The position numbers were made by a program, and so were the translations under genes. A stretch of 30,591 nucleotides of DNA from Eledone cirrhosa. Its lineage: Eukaryota. Below are positions 123 through 30,591 of this stretch, in pieces. Position 1 is the first letter of the stretch; the number at the start of each line of letters is the position of its first letter. The stretch is from positions 1 through 30,591 of the forward strand of contig CAXHJY010001620.1 of assembly GCA_964016885.1 (NCBI GenBank). Reading direction: 5' to 3'. The notes under the pieces are model-generated. The model did no database searches. It was not told the DNA's origin and saw only the letters and a program-made list of their open reading frames with translations.

Positions 123-293
123 GTCGGGGTTAGTCAATTCATCCTCACTTTCTCTCTCTTTTACTTTCTATCATTCTCTGGAAGAAATTCTGCTGTACTC
201 AGGCCTAGAGAAGATATGAGCTCCTCTGGGTTTAAAATGACCCCAAAATGCCGAACTGGAATATTACTACGACTCCCTCCTAATCTAAACAAA

Positions 294-553
294 TAATGGT
301 TTCTACTTTTGGCACAAGGCCAGCAATTACCCCAGTGCATTACTGGTACTTTACAGTACACAGAAAACCGAAGGGTGGTTTTTCTGTTAGTATATATATA
401 ATTGTTTCTACTCTTGGCACAAGGCCAGCAATTACCCCAGTGCATTACTGGTACTTTACAGTACACAGAAAACCGAAGGGTGGTTTTTCTGTTAGTATAT
501 ATATAATTGTTTCTACTATTGGCACAAGGCCAGCAATTACCCAGTACATTACT
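294..553. repeat. 105-bp tandem repeat (about 2.5 units) made of a SINE 3' end plus flank
   Basis: GGCACAAGGCCAGCAATTAC starts at 311, 416 and 521; the unit contains the small hairpin ACAGAAAACC...GGTTTTTCTGT. Confidence 0.9.
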
Positions 554-689
554 GGTACTTTATTTTATCGACCCCGTAAGGATGAAAGGCAAAGTCAACC
601 TCGGCGGGATTTGAACTCAGATCGTAAAGGGACGTAACTCTATGCTGGAAAGCATGGCGTCTGACCTTCTCCTGATACTGCCAATCCAA
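508..689 (-). mobile_element. tRNA-derived SINE, family A (octopus-type)
   Basis: Minus strand has A-box-like TGGCAGTATCAGG, B box GAGTTCAAATCC and core GCCTTTCATCCTTACGGGGTCGATAAAATAAAGTACCAG; 15-bp TSD TAGTATATATATAAT at 493-507 and 690-704. Confidence 0.9.
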
Positions 690-773
690 TAGTATATATA
701 TAATGCATATACATATATAGTATATGCATACAAATATGTTTTATATATTTACTTGTATATGAAATATATATAT

Positions 774-5410: not shown

Positions 5411-5545
5411 CGGATCTAGCTGTCGAAACGGCCGGAGCTCAACCGCCGGGGCCCTGAATCTTTTCATATTACCCACTCTACTATCCCAAGTATCGAGTAC
5501 TCTGGTGGGTTAGGATCTAGCTGGTTTTTACCAGACCCTATCTGT
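5411..5545. mobile_element. Diverged copy of the fold-back family, without the inverted arm
   Basis: GTCGAAACGGCCGGAGCTCAACCGCCGGGG and TATTACCCACTCTACTATCCCAAGTATCGAGTACTCTGGTG align to 14288-14371. Confidence 0.75.
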
Positions 5546-5579
<34 letters not shown>

Positions 5580-5689
5580 AAAGTTCTATTTAAATCGTTG
5601 GGATACAACAAGCAAATATTTTTATAACTGATATAAAGCACTCAACAAGTATTTAGAGTAAACATACGATATTAAACAAATGGAAACTA

Positions 5690-5796
5690 TATTTATAAAA
5701 CCATATTTATTTCATTATACATATTTCAAGGACACCAAGTTAAATTATGGTGTGCTTTCATCAGATAAAATATAATATAGATCAGTTTTATAAATA
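5690..5796 (-). ncRNA. Type I hammerhead ribozyme motif (PLE-like, quasi-palindromic helix III)
   Basis: Minus strand: CUGAUGA (5764-5758), helix II AAG-C-ACACCA/UGGUGU-C-CUU, GAAAUAUGUAUA, long bulged helix I; predicted cleavage after AUA between 5716 and 5715. Confidence 0.8.
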
Positions 5797-5916
5797 AATA
5801 TTGACATACCCTTAAAAAATACGACCATTACTGTTGGAAGCTCCCGGATAGTGTTGGAAGCTCCCGGATATATATATACAGTTGAAAATTGCAAACTCGA
5901 CTGTCACCACATATTA

Positions 5917-5955
5917 TGAACCTGAAGATTGCGAAAGCATGAAAGTACTTGTTCA
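5917..5955 (+). ncRNA. Minimal type I hammerhead ribozyme motif
   Basis: UGAAC-CUGAAGA-U-UGC-GAAA-GCA-U-GAA-AGUACU-U|GUUCA; palindromic helix III AGUACU; U.U mismatch at the base of helix II. Confidence 0.65.
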
Positions 5956-6204: not shown

Positions 6205-6297
6205 CATATATCTGAGGAGCTTTCGATTCCCGAGTCAGGAACGACATCAATCGATTGTTCCTCGAGCTGATCGACAATGAAACATATGTAATATGTG
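6205..6297 (+). ncRNA. Type I hammerhead ribozyme motif with long helix II
   Basis: CAUAUAU-CUGAGGA-[UCGAUU/GAUCGA; AGGAACGA/UUGUUCCU]-GAA-ACAUAUGU-A|AUAUGUG; base of helix II imperfect. Confidence 0.6.
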
Positions 6298-6888: not shown

Positions 6889-6933
6889 ATTAGCCAACAA
6901 TGTTTCGTCCTATTAAGGACTCATCAGGGCAAT
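6889..6933 (-). ncRNA. Minimal type I hammerhead ribozyme motif
   Basis: Minus strand: AUUGCC-CUGAUGA-GUCCU-UAAU-AGGAC-GAA-ACAUUGU-U|GGCUAAU; canonical core and G10.1-C11.1 pair. Confidence 0.8.
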
Positions 6934-12327: not shown

Positions 12328-12604
12328 TTGTTTCTACTTTTGGCTCCAGGCCAGCAATTACGCCCAGTACATTACTGGTACTTTATTTATCGACCCCCGT
12401 AAGGATGAAAGGAAGAGCTAACCTTGGCGGTTAATAATAATAATCAATGTTTCAAGGCCAGCAATTACCCCAGTATATTACTGGTACTTTATTTTTCGAC
12501 CCCCGTAAGGATGAAAGGAAGAGCTAACCTTGGCGGTTAATAATAATAATCTATGTTTCAAGGCCAGCAATTACTCCAGTGCATTACTGGTACTTTATTT
12601 TATC
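12328..12604 (-). mobile_element. Three tandem truncated family A SINE 3' halves (~106-bp period)
   Basis: AGGCCAGCAATTAC...ACTGGTACTTTATTT recurs three times, separated by (TAA)n tails. Confidence 0.85.
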
Positions 12605-14208: not shown

Positions 14209-14417
14209 AACGAGTAGGACCCCGACGGCTGAGCTCAAGCCGTTTTGACGGCTAATTCTGGACTAAAAATTTTAGTCCAGAATTAGCCGTCGAAACGGCT
14301 TGAGCTCAGCCGTCGGGGTACTACTCGTTCCTATTACCCACTCTACTACCCTAAGTATTGAGTACTTTGGTGCGTTATGGTCCACCTGGTTCCTCACCAC
14401 ATTTCCTTCGTTATCCC
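14204..14417. mobile_element. Fold-back interspersed repeat inserted in (TA)n, copy 2
   Basis: ~131-bp near-perfect palindrome 14204-14334 centred on AAAAATTTT, followed by a tail shared with copy 1. Confidence 0.85.
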
Positions 14418-14441
14418 ATATATATATATATATATATATAT

Positions 14442-14909
14442 GGGATAACAAGTTATCACTATAGGTAATCCAGTTAGAGGTTGGATATCTACGTACTCTG
14501 ATGTGTTGACCAGAGGTAAATAATTGTTTCTACTTTTTGGCACAAGGCCACCAATTATCCCAGTGTATTACTGGTACTTTATTTTATCGACCCCGTAAGG
14601 ATGAAAGGCAAAGTTGACCTCGGAATGGCAAGGGCCGTAACTCTACGCATCAAAGCATGGCGTCCGACCATCTACCGATACTTAATCAGTGAAACAATTG
14701 TTAGACTGTAAATAAATCCCCTTTTTTGTACTGTTGACTATGTTATTCTCCACTCCAAAACAAACTTACATAGGAATACAAGTGAAATCATAAACTCGCC
14801 ATCTACGTAAACCTCTTGTTGGGTCAAGCAACGCCGTACGCTGAAACTATCCATAATAAGAAGTATTCACAACCTCTAATTGGTTTACCTATAACGATAT
14901 TTTGTTATC

Positions 14910-15101: not shown

Positions 15102-15137
15102 TCTTAACGTTTCGGACGTTAATCCTTCATCAGAAAA
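15102..15137 (-). ncRNA. PLE-type minimal hammerhead-like motif (CUGAUGAA..GAAACGU)
   Basis: Minus strand: UUU-CUGAUGA-A-GGA-UUAACG-UCC-GAAACGUUA-AGA; helix I very weak. Confidence 0.5.
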
Positions 15138-15397: not shown

Positions 15398-15613
15398 AAG
15401 CCGGTGGATTGGCAGTATCGGTAGAGAGCCGGACACCATGCTTTGCAGCATAGAGTTACGGCCCTTTATTTTCTGAGTTCAAATCCCGCCGAGGTTAACT
15501 TTGCCTTTCATCCTTACGGGGTCGATAAAATAAAGTACCAGTTACGTACTAGGGTCGATTTAATCGACTTTCCCCTCTCGCCAAATTACTCGCCTTGTGT
15601 CTATACTAGAAAT
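15398..15613 (+). mobile_element. tRNA-derived SINE, family A longer variant, full length
   Basis: A box TGGCAGTATCGG (15410), B box GAGTTCAAATCC (15475); TSD CATTATTGCTGTTA at 15384-15397 and 15614-15627. Confidence 0.92.
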
Positions 15614-20822: not shown

Positions 20823-20966
20823 GCAGATAAATAGACAGATAAATAGACAGATAAATAGACAGATAGATAAACTGATAAATAGATAAACTGATAAATAGAT
20901 AGATAAATAGATAGACAGACAGATAGATAGACATACAGATCGATAGACATACAGATCGATAGACAT
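20520..20966. repeat. (GATA)n/(GA)n/(GACA)n microsatellites
   Basis: Direct inspection. Confidence 0.9.
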
Positions 20967-21086
20967 AGGATTACGTTGAACCCAAACATAAAATATAACA
21001 CTGGAGACTAACGCGAGACTATCAATATACGAAATTGATATTTTCTATCTCCTATCTTCTATTGTGTTTGGGTTCAATGTAATCCT
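20967..21086 (+). other. Hairpin with 25-bp inverted arms
   Basis: AGGATTACGTTGAACCCAAACATAA (20967-20991) pairs with TTGTGTTTGGGTTCAATGTAATCCT (21062-21086). Confidence 0.8.
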
Positions 21087-21098
21087 GTTACCATAATT

Positions 21099-21188
21099 TT
21101 GCAAACAACACCTGATGAAATCGCCTAGACTTGCATCATAATCAAATGATAGAGGTGAGCCATCGAAATATGTATAGTGCTTTCGCAA
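21099..21188 (+). ncRNA. Degenerate type I hammerhead motif (GAAAUAUGUAUA family)
   Basis: UUGC-AAA..CAC-CUGAUGA-[UCGCCU/AGGUGA; AUCAU/AUGAU]-GAAAUAUGUAUA|GUG.UUU.GCAA; base of helix II unpaired. Confidence 0.5.
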
Positions 21189-21215
21189 CCCGGCCTTCAT
21201 TTGTTGTTTTAATGT

Positions 21216-22423: not shown

Positions 22424-22548
22424 ATATTGTTATACTTTGGGAGGGTCATGTTGCCAATAAATTTATAAATATATAATAAATTGAAGTGAAAGCAACTGGT
22501 GCGTGTGTTTCTTATTGGCAACATGACCCTCCCAAAGTATAACAATAT
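22424..22548. repeat. 37-bp perfect inverted repeat with 51-bp spacer
   Basis: ATATTGTTATACTTTGGGAGGGTCATGTTGCCAATAA at 22424-22460 and its reverse complement at 22512-22548. Confidence 0.9.
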
Positions 22549-22663
22549 ATATATATATATATATATATTAAAGTGTTAAACAATATTCAATGATTATGTC
22601 AAAGAATGAGTTTTACAGAAGGTTGGAAGCACTCAACGGTTAAATAATTTTCTGAAGTTATTA

Positions 22664-22896
22664 ATATTAAAATATAAGTATTAATAAAATAGATGTTCTT
22701 TTGATCAATTACATTTTATTATACATATTTCGGCTGTACAACAGTACGTCCTCAGTAACCATTTAACATCTCAGGGTATGTCATGTATCATTATATTTTG
22801 TCTGATGAGGACGTACTGTTCTACATCCGAAATATGTATAATAAAATGTAATTGATCAAAAGAACATCTATTTTATTAATACTTATATTTTAATAT
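22664..22896. mobile_element. 91-bp inverted repeat containing an HHR; putative Penelope-like terminal-repeat remnant
   Basis: Arms 22664-22754 and 22806-22896 (2 mismatches), 51-bp spacer, island flanked by (TA)n. Confidence 0.7.
22787..22856 (+). ncRNA. Type I hammerhead ribozyme motif
   Basis: AUUAUAUUUUGU-CUGAUGA-GGA.C.GUA-CUGUUC-UAC.A.UCC-GAAAUAUGUAUA|AUAAAAUGUAAU; 12-bp helix I with two G-U pairs; cleavage after 22840. Confidence 0.8.
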
Positions 22897-24478: not shown

Positions 24479-24932
24479 TATATATATATAATATATATAC
24501 ATATAATATATAATATATATATATAATATATATACATATAATATATAATATATATATATACATATAATATATATATATACATATAATATATATATATATA
24601 CATATAATATATAATATATAATGTATATATATACATATAATATATATATATATACATATAATATATAATATATATATATATAATATATAATATATATACA
24701 TATAATATATATATATACATATAATATATATATATAATATATAATATATATATATACATATAATATATATATATACATATAATATATAATATATATATAT
24801 ACATATATACATATATACATATTATATATATATATACATATAATATATATATATACATATAATATATAATATATATACATATAATATATATATATACATA
24901 TAATATATATATATATACATATAATACATAAC

Positions 24933-24963
<31 letters not shown>

Positions 24964-26241
24964 CATATATACATATATATATACATATATACATATAATA
25001 TATACATATATACATATAATATATATATATACATATAATATATATATATACATATAATATATATATATATACATATATACATATAATATATATATATACA
25101 TATATACATATAATATACATATATACATATAATATATATATATATACATATATACATATAATATATATATATACATATATACATATATATATACATATAT
25201 ACATATAATATATATATATATACATATATACATATAATATATATATATATACATATATACATATAATATATAATATAAATATATAATATAAATATATACA
25301 TATATATATATATATACATATATACATATATATATACATATATACATATATATATATACATATAATATATATATACATATAATATATATATATACATATA
25401 ATATATAAATATACATATATATAATATATATATACACATATAATATATAAATATACATATATATAATATATATATACATATATATATATACATATAATAT
25501 ATAATATATATATATACATATAATATATAATATATATATATATATACATATATATAATATATATATACATATAATATATATATATACATATAATATATAA
25601 TATATATATATGTATACATATAATATATATATATACATATAAATATATATATATACATATAATATATAATATATATATATATACATATATATAATATATA
25701 TATACATATATATAATATATATATACATATATATATATACATATAATATATATATATATACATATAATATATAATATATATATATACATATAATATATAA
25801 TATATATATATACATATAATATATAATATATATATATACATATAATATATATATATACATATAATATATAATATATATATATACATATAATATATATATA
25901 TACATATAATATATAATATATATATATACATATAATATATATATATACATATAATATATAATATATATATATACATATAATATATATATATACATATAAT
26001 ATATATATATACATATATATAATATATATATACATATATATAATATATATATACATATATATATATATAAAATATATATACATATACATATAATATATAT
26101 ATATACATATAATATATATATATACATATAATATATATATATACATATATATAATATATATATATATAATATATATATATACATATAATATATATATATA
26201 CATATAATATATATATATATATATATACATATATACATATA

Positions 26242-26274
<33 letters not shown>

Positions 26275-29200
26275 CATATATACATATAATATATATATAT
26301 ACATATAATATATATATATATACATATAATAATATATACATATATATACATATAATATATATATATATACATATATACATATAATATATATATATACATA
26401 TATACATATAATATATATATATATACATATATACATATAATATATATATATATACATATATACATATAATATATATATATATACATATATACATATATAT
26501 ATACATATATACATATAATATATATATACATATATACATATAATATATATATATACATATATACATATATATAATATATATATACATATATATATATATA
26601 TAATATATATATACATATATATATATACATATAATATATATATATACATATAATATATAATATATATATATACATATAATATATAAATATACATATATAT
26701 AATATATATATACACATATAATATATAAATATACATATATATAATATATATATACATATATACATATATATACATGTATATATATACATATAATATATAA
26801 TATATATATATACATATATATAATATATATATACATATAATATATATATATACATATAATATATTATATATATATATACATGTATATAATATATATATAC
26901 ATATAATATATATATATACATATAATATATAATATATATATATACATATATATAATATATATATACATATAATATATATATACATATAATATATAATATA
27001 TATATATACATATATATAATATATATATACATATATATAATATATATATACATATATATATATATACATATAATATATAATATATATATATACATATAAT
27101 ATATAATATATATATATACATATAATATATATATATACATATATATAATTTATATATACATATATATATATATAAAATATATATACATATACATATAATA
27201 TATATATATACATATACATATAATATATATATATACATATAATATATATATATACATATATATAATATATATATACATATACATATAATATATATATATA
27301 CATATAATATATAATATATACATATATATAATATATATATATACATATATAATATATAATATATATATATACATATAATATATAATATATATATATATAC
27401 ATATATATAATATATATATACATATACATATATATAATATATATATACATATATATATATATAATATATATATACATATATATATATAATATATATATAC
27501 ATATAATATATATATACATATATATATATAATATATATATACATATATATACATATAATATATATATACATATATATAATATATATATATACATATAATA
27601 TATAATATATATGTACATATAATGTATAATATATATATATACATATAATATATAATATATATATACATATAATATATAATATATATATATACATATAATA
27701 TATAATATATATATACATATAATATATAATATATATATATATACATATAATATATAATATATATATACATATAATATATAATATATATATATACATATAA
27801 TATATAATATATATATACATATAATATATAATATATATATACATATAATATATAATATATATATACATAAAATATATAATATATACATATATATAATATA
27901 CATATACATATATAATATACATATATATAATTTACATATACATATAATATACATATATATATATATCATATATATATATAATATATATATATATAAAATA
28001 TTTATATAAATATATACAATATAATATATATATACATATACGTATATATACATATATATACATATATATAATATATATATACATATATATAATATATATA
28101 TACATATATATAATATATATATACATATATATAATATATATATACATATATATTATATATATACATATATATAATATATATACATATATATAATATATAT
28201 ACATATATATAATATATATACATATATATAATATATATACATATATATAATATATATACATATATATAATATATATATATACATATATATAATATATATA
28301 TACATATATATAATATATATACATATATATAATATATATACATATATATAATATATATACATATATATAATATATATACATATATATAATATATATACAT
28401 ATATATAATATATATACATATATATAATATATATACATATATATAATATATATATACATATATATAATATATATACATATATATAATATATATATATACA
28501 TATATATAATATATATATATACATATATATAATATATATATACATATATATAATATATATATACATATATATAATATATATATACATATATATAATATAT
28601 ATATACATATATATAATATATATATACATATATATAATATATATATAATATATATACATATATATATATATATACATATATATAATATATATATACATAT
28701 ATATAATATATATACATATATATAATATATATATACATATATATAATATATATATACATATATATAATATATATATACATATATATAATATATATATACA
28801 TATATATAATATATATACATATATAATATATATATATACATATATATAATATATATACATATATAATATATATATATACATATATATAATATATATACAT
28901 ATATAATATATATATATACATATATATAATATATATATACATATATATAATATATATATACATATATATAATATATATATACATATATATTATATATATA
29001 CATATATATAATATATATATACATATATATAATATATATATACATATATATTATATATATACATATATATAATATATATATACATATATATTATATATAT
29101 ACATATATATAATATATATATACATATATATAATATATATATACATATATATTATATATATACATATATATAATATATATATACATATATATTATATATA

Positions 29201-30591
29201 TACATATATATAATATATATATACATATATATAATATATATATACATATATATTATATATATACATATAAATAATATATATATAGATATGTTATATATAT
29301 ACATATATATAATATATATATACATATATATTATATATATACATATATATAATATATATATACATATATATAATATATATATACATATATATAATATATA
29401 TATACATATATAATATATATATACATATATAATATATATATACATATATATAATATATATATACATATATATAATATATATATACATATATATAATATAT
29501 ATATACATATATATAATATATATATACATATATATAATATATATATACATATATATAATATATATACATATATATAATATATATACATATATATAATATA
29601 TATATACATATATATAATATATATATACATATATATAATATATATATACATATATATTATATATATACATATATATAATATATATATACATATATATTAT
29701 ATATATACATATATATAATATATATATACATATATATTATATATATACATATATATAATATATATATACATATATATTATATATATACATATATATAATA
29801 TATATATATATACATATATATTATATATATACATATATATAATATATATATATAATATATATATATACATATATATAATATATATACATATATATAATAT
29901 ATATATACATATATATAATATATATATACATATATATAATATATATATACATATATAATATATATATACATATATATTATATATATACATATATATTATA
30001 TATATACATATATATAATATATATATAGATATATTATATATATACATATATATTATATATATACATATATATAATATATATATACACATATATAATATAT
30101 ATATACATATATATAATATATATATACATATATATAATATATATATACATATATATAATATATATATACATATATATAATATATATATACATATATATTA
30201 TATATATACATATATATTATATATATACATATATATAATATAGATATAGGTATATATAATATATATATATACATATATATAATATATATATACATATATA
30301 TTATATATATACATATATATTATATATATAGATATATTATATATATAGATATATTATATATATAGATATATTAATATATATAATATATATATACTATATA
30401 TATAATATATATAATATATATACATATATATAATATATATACATATATATACATATATATAATATATATACATATATATAATATATATATAATATATATA
30501 TATATACATATATATAATATATATAATATATATAATATATATATATATATATATACTATATATATAATATATATATACTATATATATATAT
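24479..30591. repeat. ~6.1-kb TA-rich satellite, (TA)nCA(TA)nA units of about 19-30 bp
   Basis: Continuous to the window end; source of the long Y/I/M/C/V pseudo-ORFs. Confidence 0.97.

What the first reader, a model, noticed from the sequence alone, without database searches (positions are those of the whole stretch)
5690..5796. HHR family with conserved helices I/III but swapped helix II (5.7, 21.1 and 22.8 kb)
Seen: 5690-5796(-) and 22787-22856(+) share ATTATATTTT(A/G)T-CTGATGA...GAAATATGTATA-AT(G/A)AAAT. Their differences in helix I keep pairing through G-U, while helix II sequences are unrelated but both fold. Both islands also share AAGCACTCAAC (~5637 and ~22627). A third motif at 21099-21188 has the same GAAATATGTATA. 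Structure conserved over sequence suggests selection on ribozyme function during mobilisation.
Basis: partly seen in the sequence, partly recalled or inferred. Interest (0 to 1): 0.75.

Follow-up and report, generated by a model that had tools for sequence, protein, structure and literature searches.

The report
Hammerhead ends of Hydra-type Penelope elements
The three motifs are the tail ends of a known kind of animal jumping gene and carry a predicted self-cutting RNA whose stems have drifted in step rather than been swapped, and the short shared word beside them lies in a small conserved hairpin that likely tells the element's copying enzyme where to start.

Summary
The motifs are real (4 in the window, 0 in 300 shuffles; 53,919 exact genome matches against 43 control). 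They are type I hammerheads at the 3' ends of 5'-truncated Hydra-clade Penelope-like elements inserted at TA repeats. The 5.7-kb and 22.8-kb families lie behind RT + GIY-YIG ORFs with Hydra marks; the parent of the 21.1-kb family is only suggested. Helix II is not swapped: the 5.7 and 22.8 kb 5' strands differ by 7 transitions and no transversion, intermediates exist, and helix II distance follows flank distance (rho 0.69). All 17 families keep 3 bp, an unpaired C, then a further stem. Selection on the fold is supported: 50 of 58 between-family changes keep pairing against 10 of 34 private ones. Helix III is self-complementary, so cutting would need dimers; cutting and expression are untested. 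AAGCACTCAAC is the 3' arm of a bulged hairpin present twice per element; 81 of 90 mapped copy ends lie 7-10 nt before one of them. This scan had already noted the clade, the abundance and the twin hairpin on other DNA; I did not find the hairpin in print.

The parts
5577..5869 (-). Family B insertion: 5'-truncated 3' end (pLTR with long 'tail' end) of a Hydra-clade Penelope-like element, between TA runs; 20-nt tandem duplication at the 5' truncation point (5832-5870)
   Evidence: (40 of 920 candidates scored; the 39 best other copies 97-98% identical)
5708..5772 (-). Type I hammerhead B: helix I 8 bp, core 5758-5764, helix II 3 bp + C.C + 6 bp, GAAA 5724-5727, self-complementary helix III 5717-5724, predicted cut after the A at 5716
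5637..5659 (-).
22568..22755 (-). Family A inverted arm with long (tail) end; its hammerhead is cut inside the core at the inversion junction and is predicted dead
22628..22658 (-). Tail hairpin 1 of family A, degraded in this copy (one mismatch in the upper stem)
22756..22893 (+). Family A arm with short end, running into a TA run
   Evidence: (44 matches, 40 of 63 candidates scored)
22790..22852 (+). Type I hammerhead A: helix I 12 bp, core 22802-22808, short helix II (3 bp + C.A + 3 bp), predicted cut after the A at 22840
20965..21214 (+). Family C insertion, older and decayed, with a short inverted piece at its 5' side and a short end
   Evidence: (40 of 1117 candidates scored; other copies 85-90% identical)
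21109..21179 (+). Type I hammerhead C, long helix II, weakened helices I and II in this copy

Best explanation
The three motifs are type I hammerhead sequences at the 3' ends of 5'-truncated copies of Hydra-clade Penelope-like retrotransposons (shown for the 5.7 and 22.8 kb families, likely for 21.1 kb), and they are predicted to cut their RNA only as dimers through a self-complementary helix III. How it most likely works: a tandem copy is transcribed through pLTR-ORF-pLTR (inferred); the RT/GIY-YIG protein nicks (TA)n DNA (inferred from insertion sites and the clade); it docks on one of two bulged hairpins in the 5' leader behind the hammerhead and starts cDNA 7-10 nt upstream of that hairpin at a UA-rich spot that can pair with the TA primer (inferred; the end positions are shown); early stops and template flips give the short, often two-armed, inverted copies seen in the window (anatomy shown, cause inferred). 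The hammerhead rides in every such copy because it lies 50-150 nt from the start points. Only master lineages are under selection, which keeps the helices paired while their letters drift; inserted copies then decay neutrally (shown by the change spectrum). Odds by step: identity 0.93; selection on the fold 0.9; dimer cleavage as the selected function 0.6; hairpin as RT start signal 0.55.
For: Carrier: family B pLTR matches flank a long RT + GIY-YIG ORF in 14 of 14 loci fetched for their ORF, as a direct 5' repeat running into the ATG in 6 of 14; 13 of 74 scored ORF matches have a stop-free frame of 700 aa or more; family A hammerhead lies about 1.4 kb behind a sister ORF, 61% identical over 344 aa. 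Hydra marks RWR, DKT, CxCX5C, CxxC..E..N..CxH are in the ORF and match the clade definition and the published Hydra-1_Obim protein by eye. Inverted pairs within 700 nt in 15 of 30 A loci and 8 of 25 B loci. Covariation on 17 family representatives: 91% of 323 cells paired against 75.9% shuffled, 9 of 9 helix II pairs with a change on both sides, slid registers 36-51%. Pair-keeping changes 50 of 58 between families against 10 of 34 private (Fisher p = 5e-8), Mantel rho 0.69, 0 of 5000 permutations as high. Helix III slot fully self-complementary in 94 of 114 distinct hits and in 19 of 34 distinct sequences of a scan that did not require it. Hairpin: full 3-bp upper stem in 19 of 83 site clusters with a 2-nt bulge against 0, 3, 0, 0 for bulges of 0, 1, 3, 4 and a shuffled mean of 1.0, maximum 6. 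Ends: 81 of 90 mapped (124 examined) lie 7-10 nt before hairpin 1 or 2. Internal two-site initiation that makes the tail is shown in vitro for another clade (PMC11167929).
Against: No cleavage or expression data. The helix III self-duplex is weak (-2.2 kcal/mol), the usual G10.1-C11.1 pair is present in only 2 of 17 families, and monomer MFE folds do not give the full hammerhead. In the Anolis element, hammerhead mutants did not impair insertion in vitro and no RNA-seq reads ended at the cut site (PMC11167929), so the selected function may not be cleavage. Family C: no Hydra ORF upstream in 65 loci (some duplicated); one locus (L232) has a Hydra ORF fragment just downstream, but across a TA stretch and without hairpin 2. 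34 of 124 ends could not be placed, and 46 of 83 motif clusters had no testable upstream arm. Core invariance is built into the search patterns and is not evidence. The trees used were minimum spanning trees on short flanks, not phylogenies; shuffle controls ignore relatedness. Pfam found nothing in 4 of 4 proteins; clade placement rests on motifs, not on a tree.
Confidence: 0.85

Rival explanations
1. Helix II is a swappable module exchanged between element families by recombination or template switching.
For: Window copies A, B and C look unlike in helix II by plain alignment, and helix II lengths run from 20 to 46 nt. One MST edge has identical helix II strands with flanks 27% apart (families 5 and 1), which could be a local exchange.
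Against: Differences A/B are transitions; a continuum of intermediates is listed; the unpaired C at position 4 is shared by 17 of 17 families and 163 of 176 copies; helix II distance tracks flank distance.
Confidence: 0.05
2. The fold is conserved for protein binding or RNA dimerisation, and self-cleavage is weak or incidental.
For: PLE hammerheads cut slowly in vitro (PMC4209133); the Anolis one needs protein and is dispensable for insertion in vitro (PMC11167929); the conserved unpaired C / C.C loop in helix II could be a protein contact.
Against: 53,919 matches keep both catalytic boxes and a valid UH triplet against 43 control; a purely structural role would not obviously need them in all master lineages.
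Confidence: 0.25
3. The shared GAGTGCT word is a DNA-level promoter or endonuclease recognition site, not an RNA start signal.
For: The word is nearly invariant and near-palindromic, lies about 110 and 20 nt before the ATG inside the pLTR, and tail DNA was needed for Penelope endonuclease recognition (as cited in PMC11167929).
Against: Upper stems vary freely in sequence while pairing, use G-U pairs that work on the sense strand only, and need a 2-nt bulge; both 3' ends sit at the same distance from a hairpin.
Confidence: 0.2
4. The motifs are non-autonomous retrozymes (tandem non-coding units making circular RNA).
For: Most copies are short and non-coding; tandem hammerhead arrays at 311-nt spacing exist elsewhere in this genome; family C has no secure ORF.
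Against: Families A and B join full ORFs; copies are variably 5'-truncated and inverted rather than head-to-tail units.
Confidence: 0.07

Closest known systems
Hydra clade of C-terminal EN+ Penelope-like elements, incl. Hydra-1_Obim of Octopus bimaculoides (Craig et al. 2021, PMC8557442; passages, section 11 and supplement parts 2, 52, 53 seen)
   Same: RT then GIY-YIG, RW(K/R), DKT, CxCX5C, CxxC/CxH, (TA)n targets, sense type I hammerhead near the 3' end, inverted 5'-truncated partner, optional tail. GAGCACT words also stand behind the hammerhead or before the ATG in the published Amil2, Ajap1 and Ajap2 consensi (seen by eye).
   Different: Different families: hammerhead unlike the one listed for Hydra-1_Obim; GAAATATGTATA not found in the supplement text (wrapped lines can hide a match). 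About 4 kb with a 1.4-2.6 kb 3' UTR against under 3 kb; tail about 90 nt against 30-40; even 8-nt helix III palindrome; helix II with a conserved internal C.C loop; tens of thousands of copies.
PLE hammerheads with small palindromic helix III (Cervera and de la Pena 2014, PMC4209133; parts 1-2 of 4 read; review PMC6765202, passages)
   Same: Type I, dimer-type helix III, many divergent families per genome with covariation, mostly solo or in opposite-strand pairs 100-700 bp apart.
   Different: Longer helix I (8-12 bp), mostly A-U or G-U at 10.1-11.1 instead of G-C, internal loop after three pairs.
Poseidon element of Anolis (PAc): internal RT initiation and tail (Frangieh et al. 2024, PMC11167929; parts 1-2 of 4 read)
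   Same: Two 3' ends downstream of the hammerhead, tail between them, AT-rich targets.
   Different: [quoted passage not shown]
Animal non-LTR retrozymes (bioRxiv 10.64898/2026.07.22.740005, part 1 of 5 read; PMC7229834, search listing only)
   Same: Type I hammerhead derived from or related to pLTRs.
   Different: Not tandem non-coding units; families A and B have coding parents.

Membership tests
Type I hammerhead ribozyme | Core boxes CUGANGA, GAAA and UH cleavage triplet in type I order | tested here: met
   not met for the truncated inverted copy at 22720-22755
Type I hammerhead ribozyme | Helices I and II with covariation | tested here: met
   weak in the 21.1-kb copy itself
Type I hammerhead ribozyme | Helix III, stable or palindromic for dimer formation | tested here: met
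   2 bp as monomer, self-complementary 8-mer; palindromy kept across different sequences
Type I hammerhead ribozyme | Helix I-II tertiary contact | not tested
   the conserved internal loop in helix II is a candidate only
Type I hammerhead ribozyme | Site-specific self-cleavage | not testable with these tools
   no assay; no RNA holder listed
Penelope-like elements (EN+) | Single ORF with RT and GIY-YIG endonuclease | tested here: met
   families A and B: (by motifs and homologues; Pfam blank); family C inconclusive
Penelope-like elements (EN+) | pLTRs from partial tandems, inverted 5'-truncated partner, one-sided tail | tested here: met
Hydra clade | C-terminal EN; RWK-type and DKT motifs | tested here: met
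   RIRWR (R for K) and SDKT
Hydra clade | CxCX5C linker; CxxC and CxH around conserved E and N in place of CCHH | tested here: met
   against the definition
Hydra clade | (TA)n insertion and canonical hammerhead | tested here: met
   114 of 124 copies have a TA run downstream
Hydra clade | Generally shorter than 3 kb | tested here: not met
   about 4 kb with long 3' UTR; described as a tendency, not a diagnostic
Hydra clade | Groups with Hydra RTs in a phylogeny | not tested
   published consensi were seen only as text and not entered into an alignment; similarity judged by eye
Non-LTR retrozymes | Head-to-tail non-coding units each with a hammerhead, no own ORF | tested here: not met
   for families A and B; family C shows no tandem units in the copies displayed

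The most novel reading that the evidence does not exclude
Hydra-clade Penelope elements carry a duplicated bulged RNA hairpin that the telomerase-related RT binds to start cDNA a fixed 7-10 nt upstream, so the spacing of the twin hairpins is the 'tail'; together with a hammerhead whose helix II keeps an invariant internal C, this is a compact, transferable mobilisation signal that non-coding elements in the genome also use.
Probability: 0.5. Interest if true: 0.7.

Novelty: new variant of a known kind. Interest (0 to 1): 0.46.

Why it matters
The hammerheads themselves are expected in Penelope-like elements, so the headline of the finding is ordinary and its 'swap' is wrong. Two things add value. 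First, tens of thousands of copies in many subfamilies give a clean natural experiment showing that master lineages keep the ribozyme fold, including an internal C.C loop not described in the papers I read, although the role of PLE hammerheads is still open. Second, the shared 11-mer leads to a twin hairpin at a fixed distance from both copy ends, which makes the old question of how these telomerase-related RTs choose internal start sites, and why the tail exists, directly testable with one protein and a few RNA variants.

Tried and rejected
Rfam: no hammerhead model reported; miRNA hits are microsatellite or fold-back artefacts. Pfam: 0 families in 4 proteins. Naiad identity (N-terminal EN, no canonical hammerhead) rejected on domain order; Neptune/Nematis rejected on DKT and the CxCX5C linker. 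Pairing of the GAGTGCT word with the 5' strand of helix II as a switch: fits family A by eye but the word is invariant while helix II varies; rejected, not formally scored. Pattern for hairpin 2 before an ATG was too loose (3,384 against 1,867 control) and its 30 loci were left out of the hairpin test. Expression: no RNA holder listed; laying four contig runs shows presence only and says nothing on cleavage. Local-alignment mapping of ends ran into TA microhomology and crashed; replaced. Family C parent: ORF remnants in L066 and L072 do not join the family C copy; only L232 is suggestive. The Lunse et al. dimer paper is not held; it is cited only through the review PMC6765202. Literature searches for the hairpin or these families gave no description; the Octopus vulgaris repeat paper PMC13282606 has no occurrence of 'hammerhead' or 'ribozyme' in its main text. 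Repbase/Dfam and subscription papers were not searchable; bioRxiv supplements and figures could not be seen.

Full report
Observation. The window is microsatellite-rich animal DNA from a 3.0-Gb assembly; an octopus-like host is inferred from the element clade and the one named close protein hit, from Argonauta. The pattern CTGANGA-N-GAAATATGTATA occurs four times: 5716-5764(-), 21112-21176(+), 22802-22840(+) and a core-truncated copy at 22720-22755(-); none in 300 shuffles. The shared 11-mer is at 5636 and 22627. Each motif reads as a type I hammerhead with an AUA cut site; helix I is 8 bp (5.7 kb), 12 bp (22.8 kb) and only 3 bp in the decayed 21.1-kb copy. Rfam reported no hammerhead in what was shown.

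Each motif is one copy of a dispersed family. Family A (22.8 kb): 44 matches, 40 of 63 candidates scored. Family B (5.7 kb): 40 of 920 candidates scored, top copies 97-98% identical. Family C (21.1 kb): 40 of 1117 scored, 85-90%. The exact pattern CTGATGA N14-44 GAAATATRTATA has 53,919 genome matches against 43 for the reversed control; a looser pattern for other families gives 218,866 against 42,916. Copies share 3' ends, are variably cut at the 5' side, abut TA runs and often come as divergent inverted pairs: 15 of 30 A loci, 8 of 25 B loci. The 22.8-kb island is such a pair, one arm with the long end and one with the short end.

Carrier. Extending long copies found ORFs about 1.4-2.6 kb upstream of the hammerhead. 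The family B ORF has 74 scored matches at 84-100%, 13 of them stop-free for 700 aa or more. All 14 loci fetched for this ORF carry the window's B sequence at 85-99% identity beside it, in 6 as a direct 5' repeat that runs into the ATG. Family A has a sister ORF, 61% identical over 344 aa. The protein has RT motifs, then CxCX5C, a GIY-YIG-type domain, CxxC and CxH, with RWR and DKT upstream. These are the marks of the Hydra clade in PMC8557442, whose supplement lists Hydra-1_Obim with a different hammerhead. Pfam found nothing and I built no tree with the published consensi. For family C no upstream ORF appeared in 65 loci; one (L232) has a Hydra ORF fragment right behind the long end, which is suggestive only.

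Helix II is not swapped. From 176 distinct copies, extracted on the core boxes and an 8-nt helix III slot without a pairing filter, 55 clusters arose; the 17 with two or more copies (138 copies) were analysed and 38 singletons left out. Anchored on the invariant boxes, the A and B 5' strands differ by 7 transitions and no transversion; the longer sister of A differs from B by 13 transitions and no transversion over both strands. A looks like a loop-shortened form of that sister (variants; inference). All 17 share 3 pair positions, then a C (opposite C in 14), then a further stem. On the MAFFT alignment 91% of cells pair against 75.9% in shuffles and 36-51% in slid registers; all 9 helix II pairs have double changes. 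These shuffles ignore relatedness, so I added a contrast: changes between families along a flank-based spanning tree keep pairing in 50 of 58 cases, private changes in copies in 10 of 34 (p = 5e-8); helix II distance follows flank distance, rho 0.69. An earlier count that included the two outermost helix II positions gave 25 kept and 20 broken for helix II, so the signal is in the six inner pairs. One pair of families has identical helix II strands with more distant flanks and could hide an exchange.

Helix III. As a monomer it has 2 bp; the 8-mer is self-complementary. A scan that did not ask for palindromes found them in 94 of 114 distinct hits and 19 of 34 distinct sequences, though most hits come from loci chosen with the window's own 8-mer. 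This matches the dimer model for PLE hammerheads (PMC4209133; PMC6765202). The duplex is weak (-2.2 kcal/mol), and in the Anolis element cutting needs protein and is dispensable for insertion in vitro (PMC11167929).

The shared word. Its reverse complement is near-invariant behind the hammerhead in most families with long ends, and recurs about 20 nt before the ATG. In 83 clusters of 205 sites, leaving out 30 loci fetched with a pattern that forced the 5' arm, 19 form 4 bp + 2-nt bulge + 3 bp, against 0, 3, 0, 0 for other bulge sizes and a shuffled maximum of 6; 46 had no testable arm. Upper stems differ widely in sequence and the bulge is UU or UC in all 19. Of 124 copies in 14 families, 10 had no TA run and 24 could not be mapped; of the 90 mapped, 48 of 56 end 7-10 nt before hairpin 1 and 33 of 34 end 7-10 nt before hairpin 2. 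Ends were assigned to the next hairpin by construction, but the hairpins are about 90 nt apart, so the narrow range is informative. Similar words stand at the same places in published coral and sea-cucumber Hydra consensi (by eye). Later look-ups showed three more notes of this scan with the same hairpin reading; they are not independent support.

Mechanism. Shown: anatomy, carrier for A and B, selection on the fold, end positions. Inferred: transcription of tandems, TA nicking, hairpin-directed internal initiation, dimer cleavage. The hammerhead is frequent because it lies close to the start points and so is in even the shortest cDNAs; its abundance is no evidence that each copy works.

Verdict. 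New families of a known kind, with variant features (long 3' UTR, 90-nt tail, internal C.C loop, twin hairpin). Interest 0.46, carried mostly by the testable start-signal hypothesis, which I did not find in the searches listed.

Noticed in passing
window 5922-5950(+), 6212-6290(+), 6903-6927(-), 15110-15133(-): Four more hammerhead-like cores of other families, three with palindromic helix III slots; each recurs in other fetched loci (3, 2, 1 and 12 loci).
   Followed up: partly
window 5415-5540, also about 780-970 and 14220-14410: A fold-back non-coding element carrying the same bulged hairpin (intact at 5475-5501, +) next to TA runs; hits in 34 fetched loci. Likely a non-autonomous passenger of the same enzymes.
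   Followed up: partly
G000:C1:1239862-1244279: Two opposed arrays of a hammerhead core at 311-nt spacing (5 and 9 units), retrozyme-like.
   Followed up: no
window 22424-22548: Short fold-back element next to the family A insertion, present in 20 fetched loci.
   Followed up: no
window 24480-30591: A 6-kb array of a 19-21-nt TA-rich unit, about 310 copies.
   Followed up: no
window 293-690, 1331-1744, 12348-12601, 14540-14680, 15440-15600: Copies and partial tandems of a common SINE-like repeat (octopus SINE by recall, not from a call).
   Followed up: no
L084:150-6800: A sister-family insertion with a 2.6-kb 3' UTR that holds an inverted piece of its own ORF and a long inverted arm.
   Followed up: no
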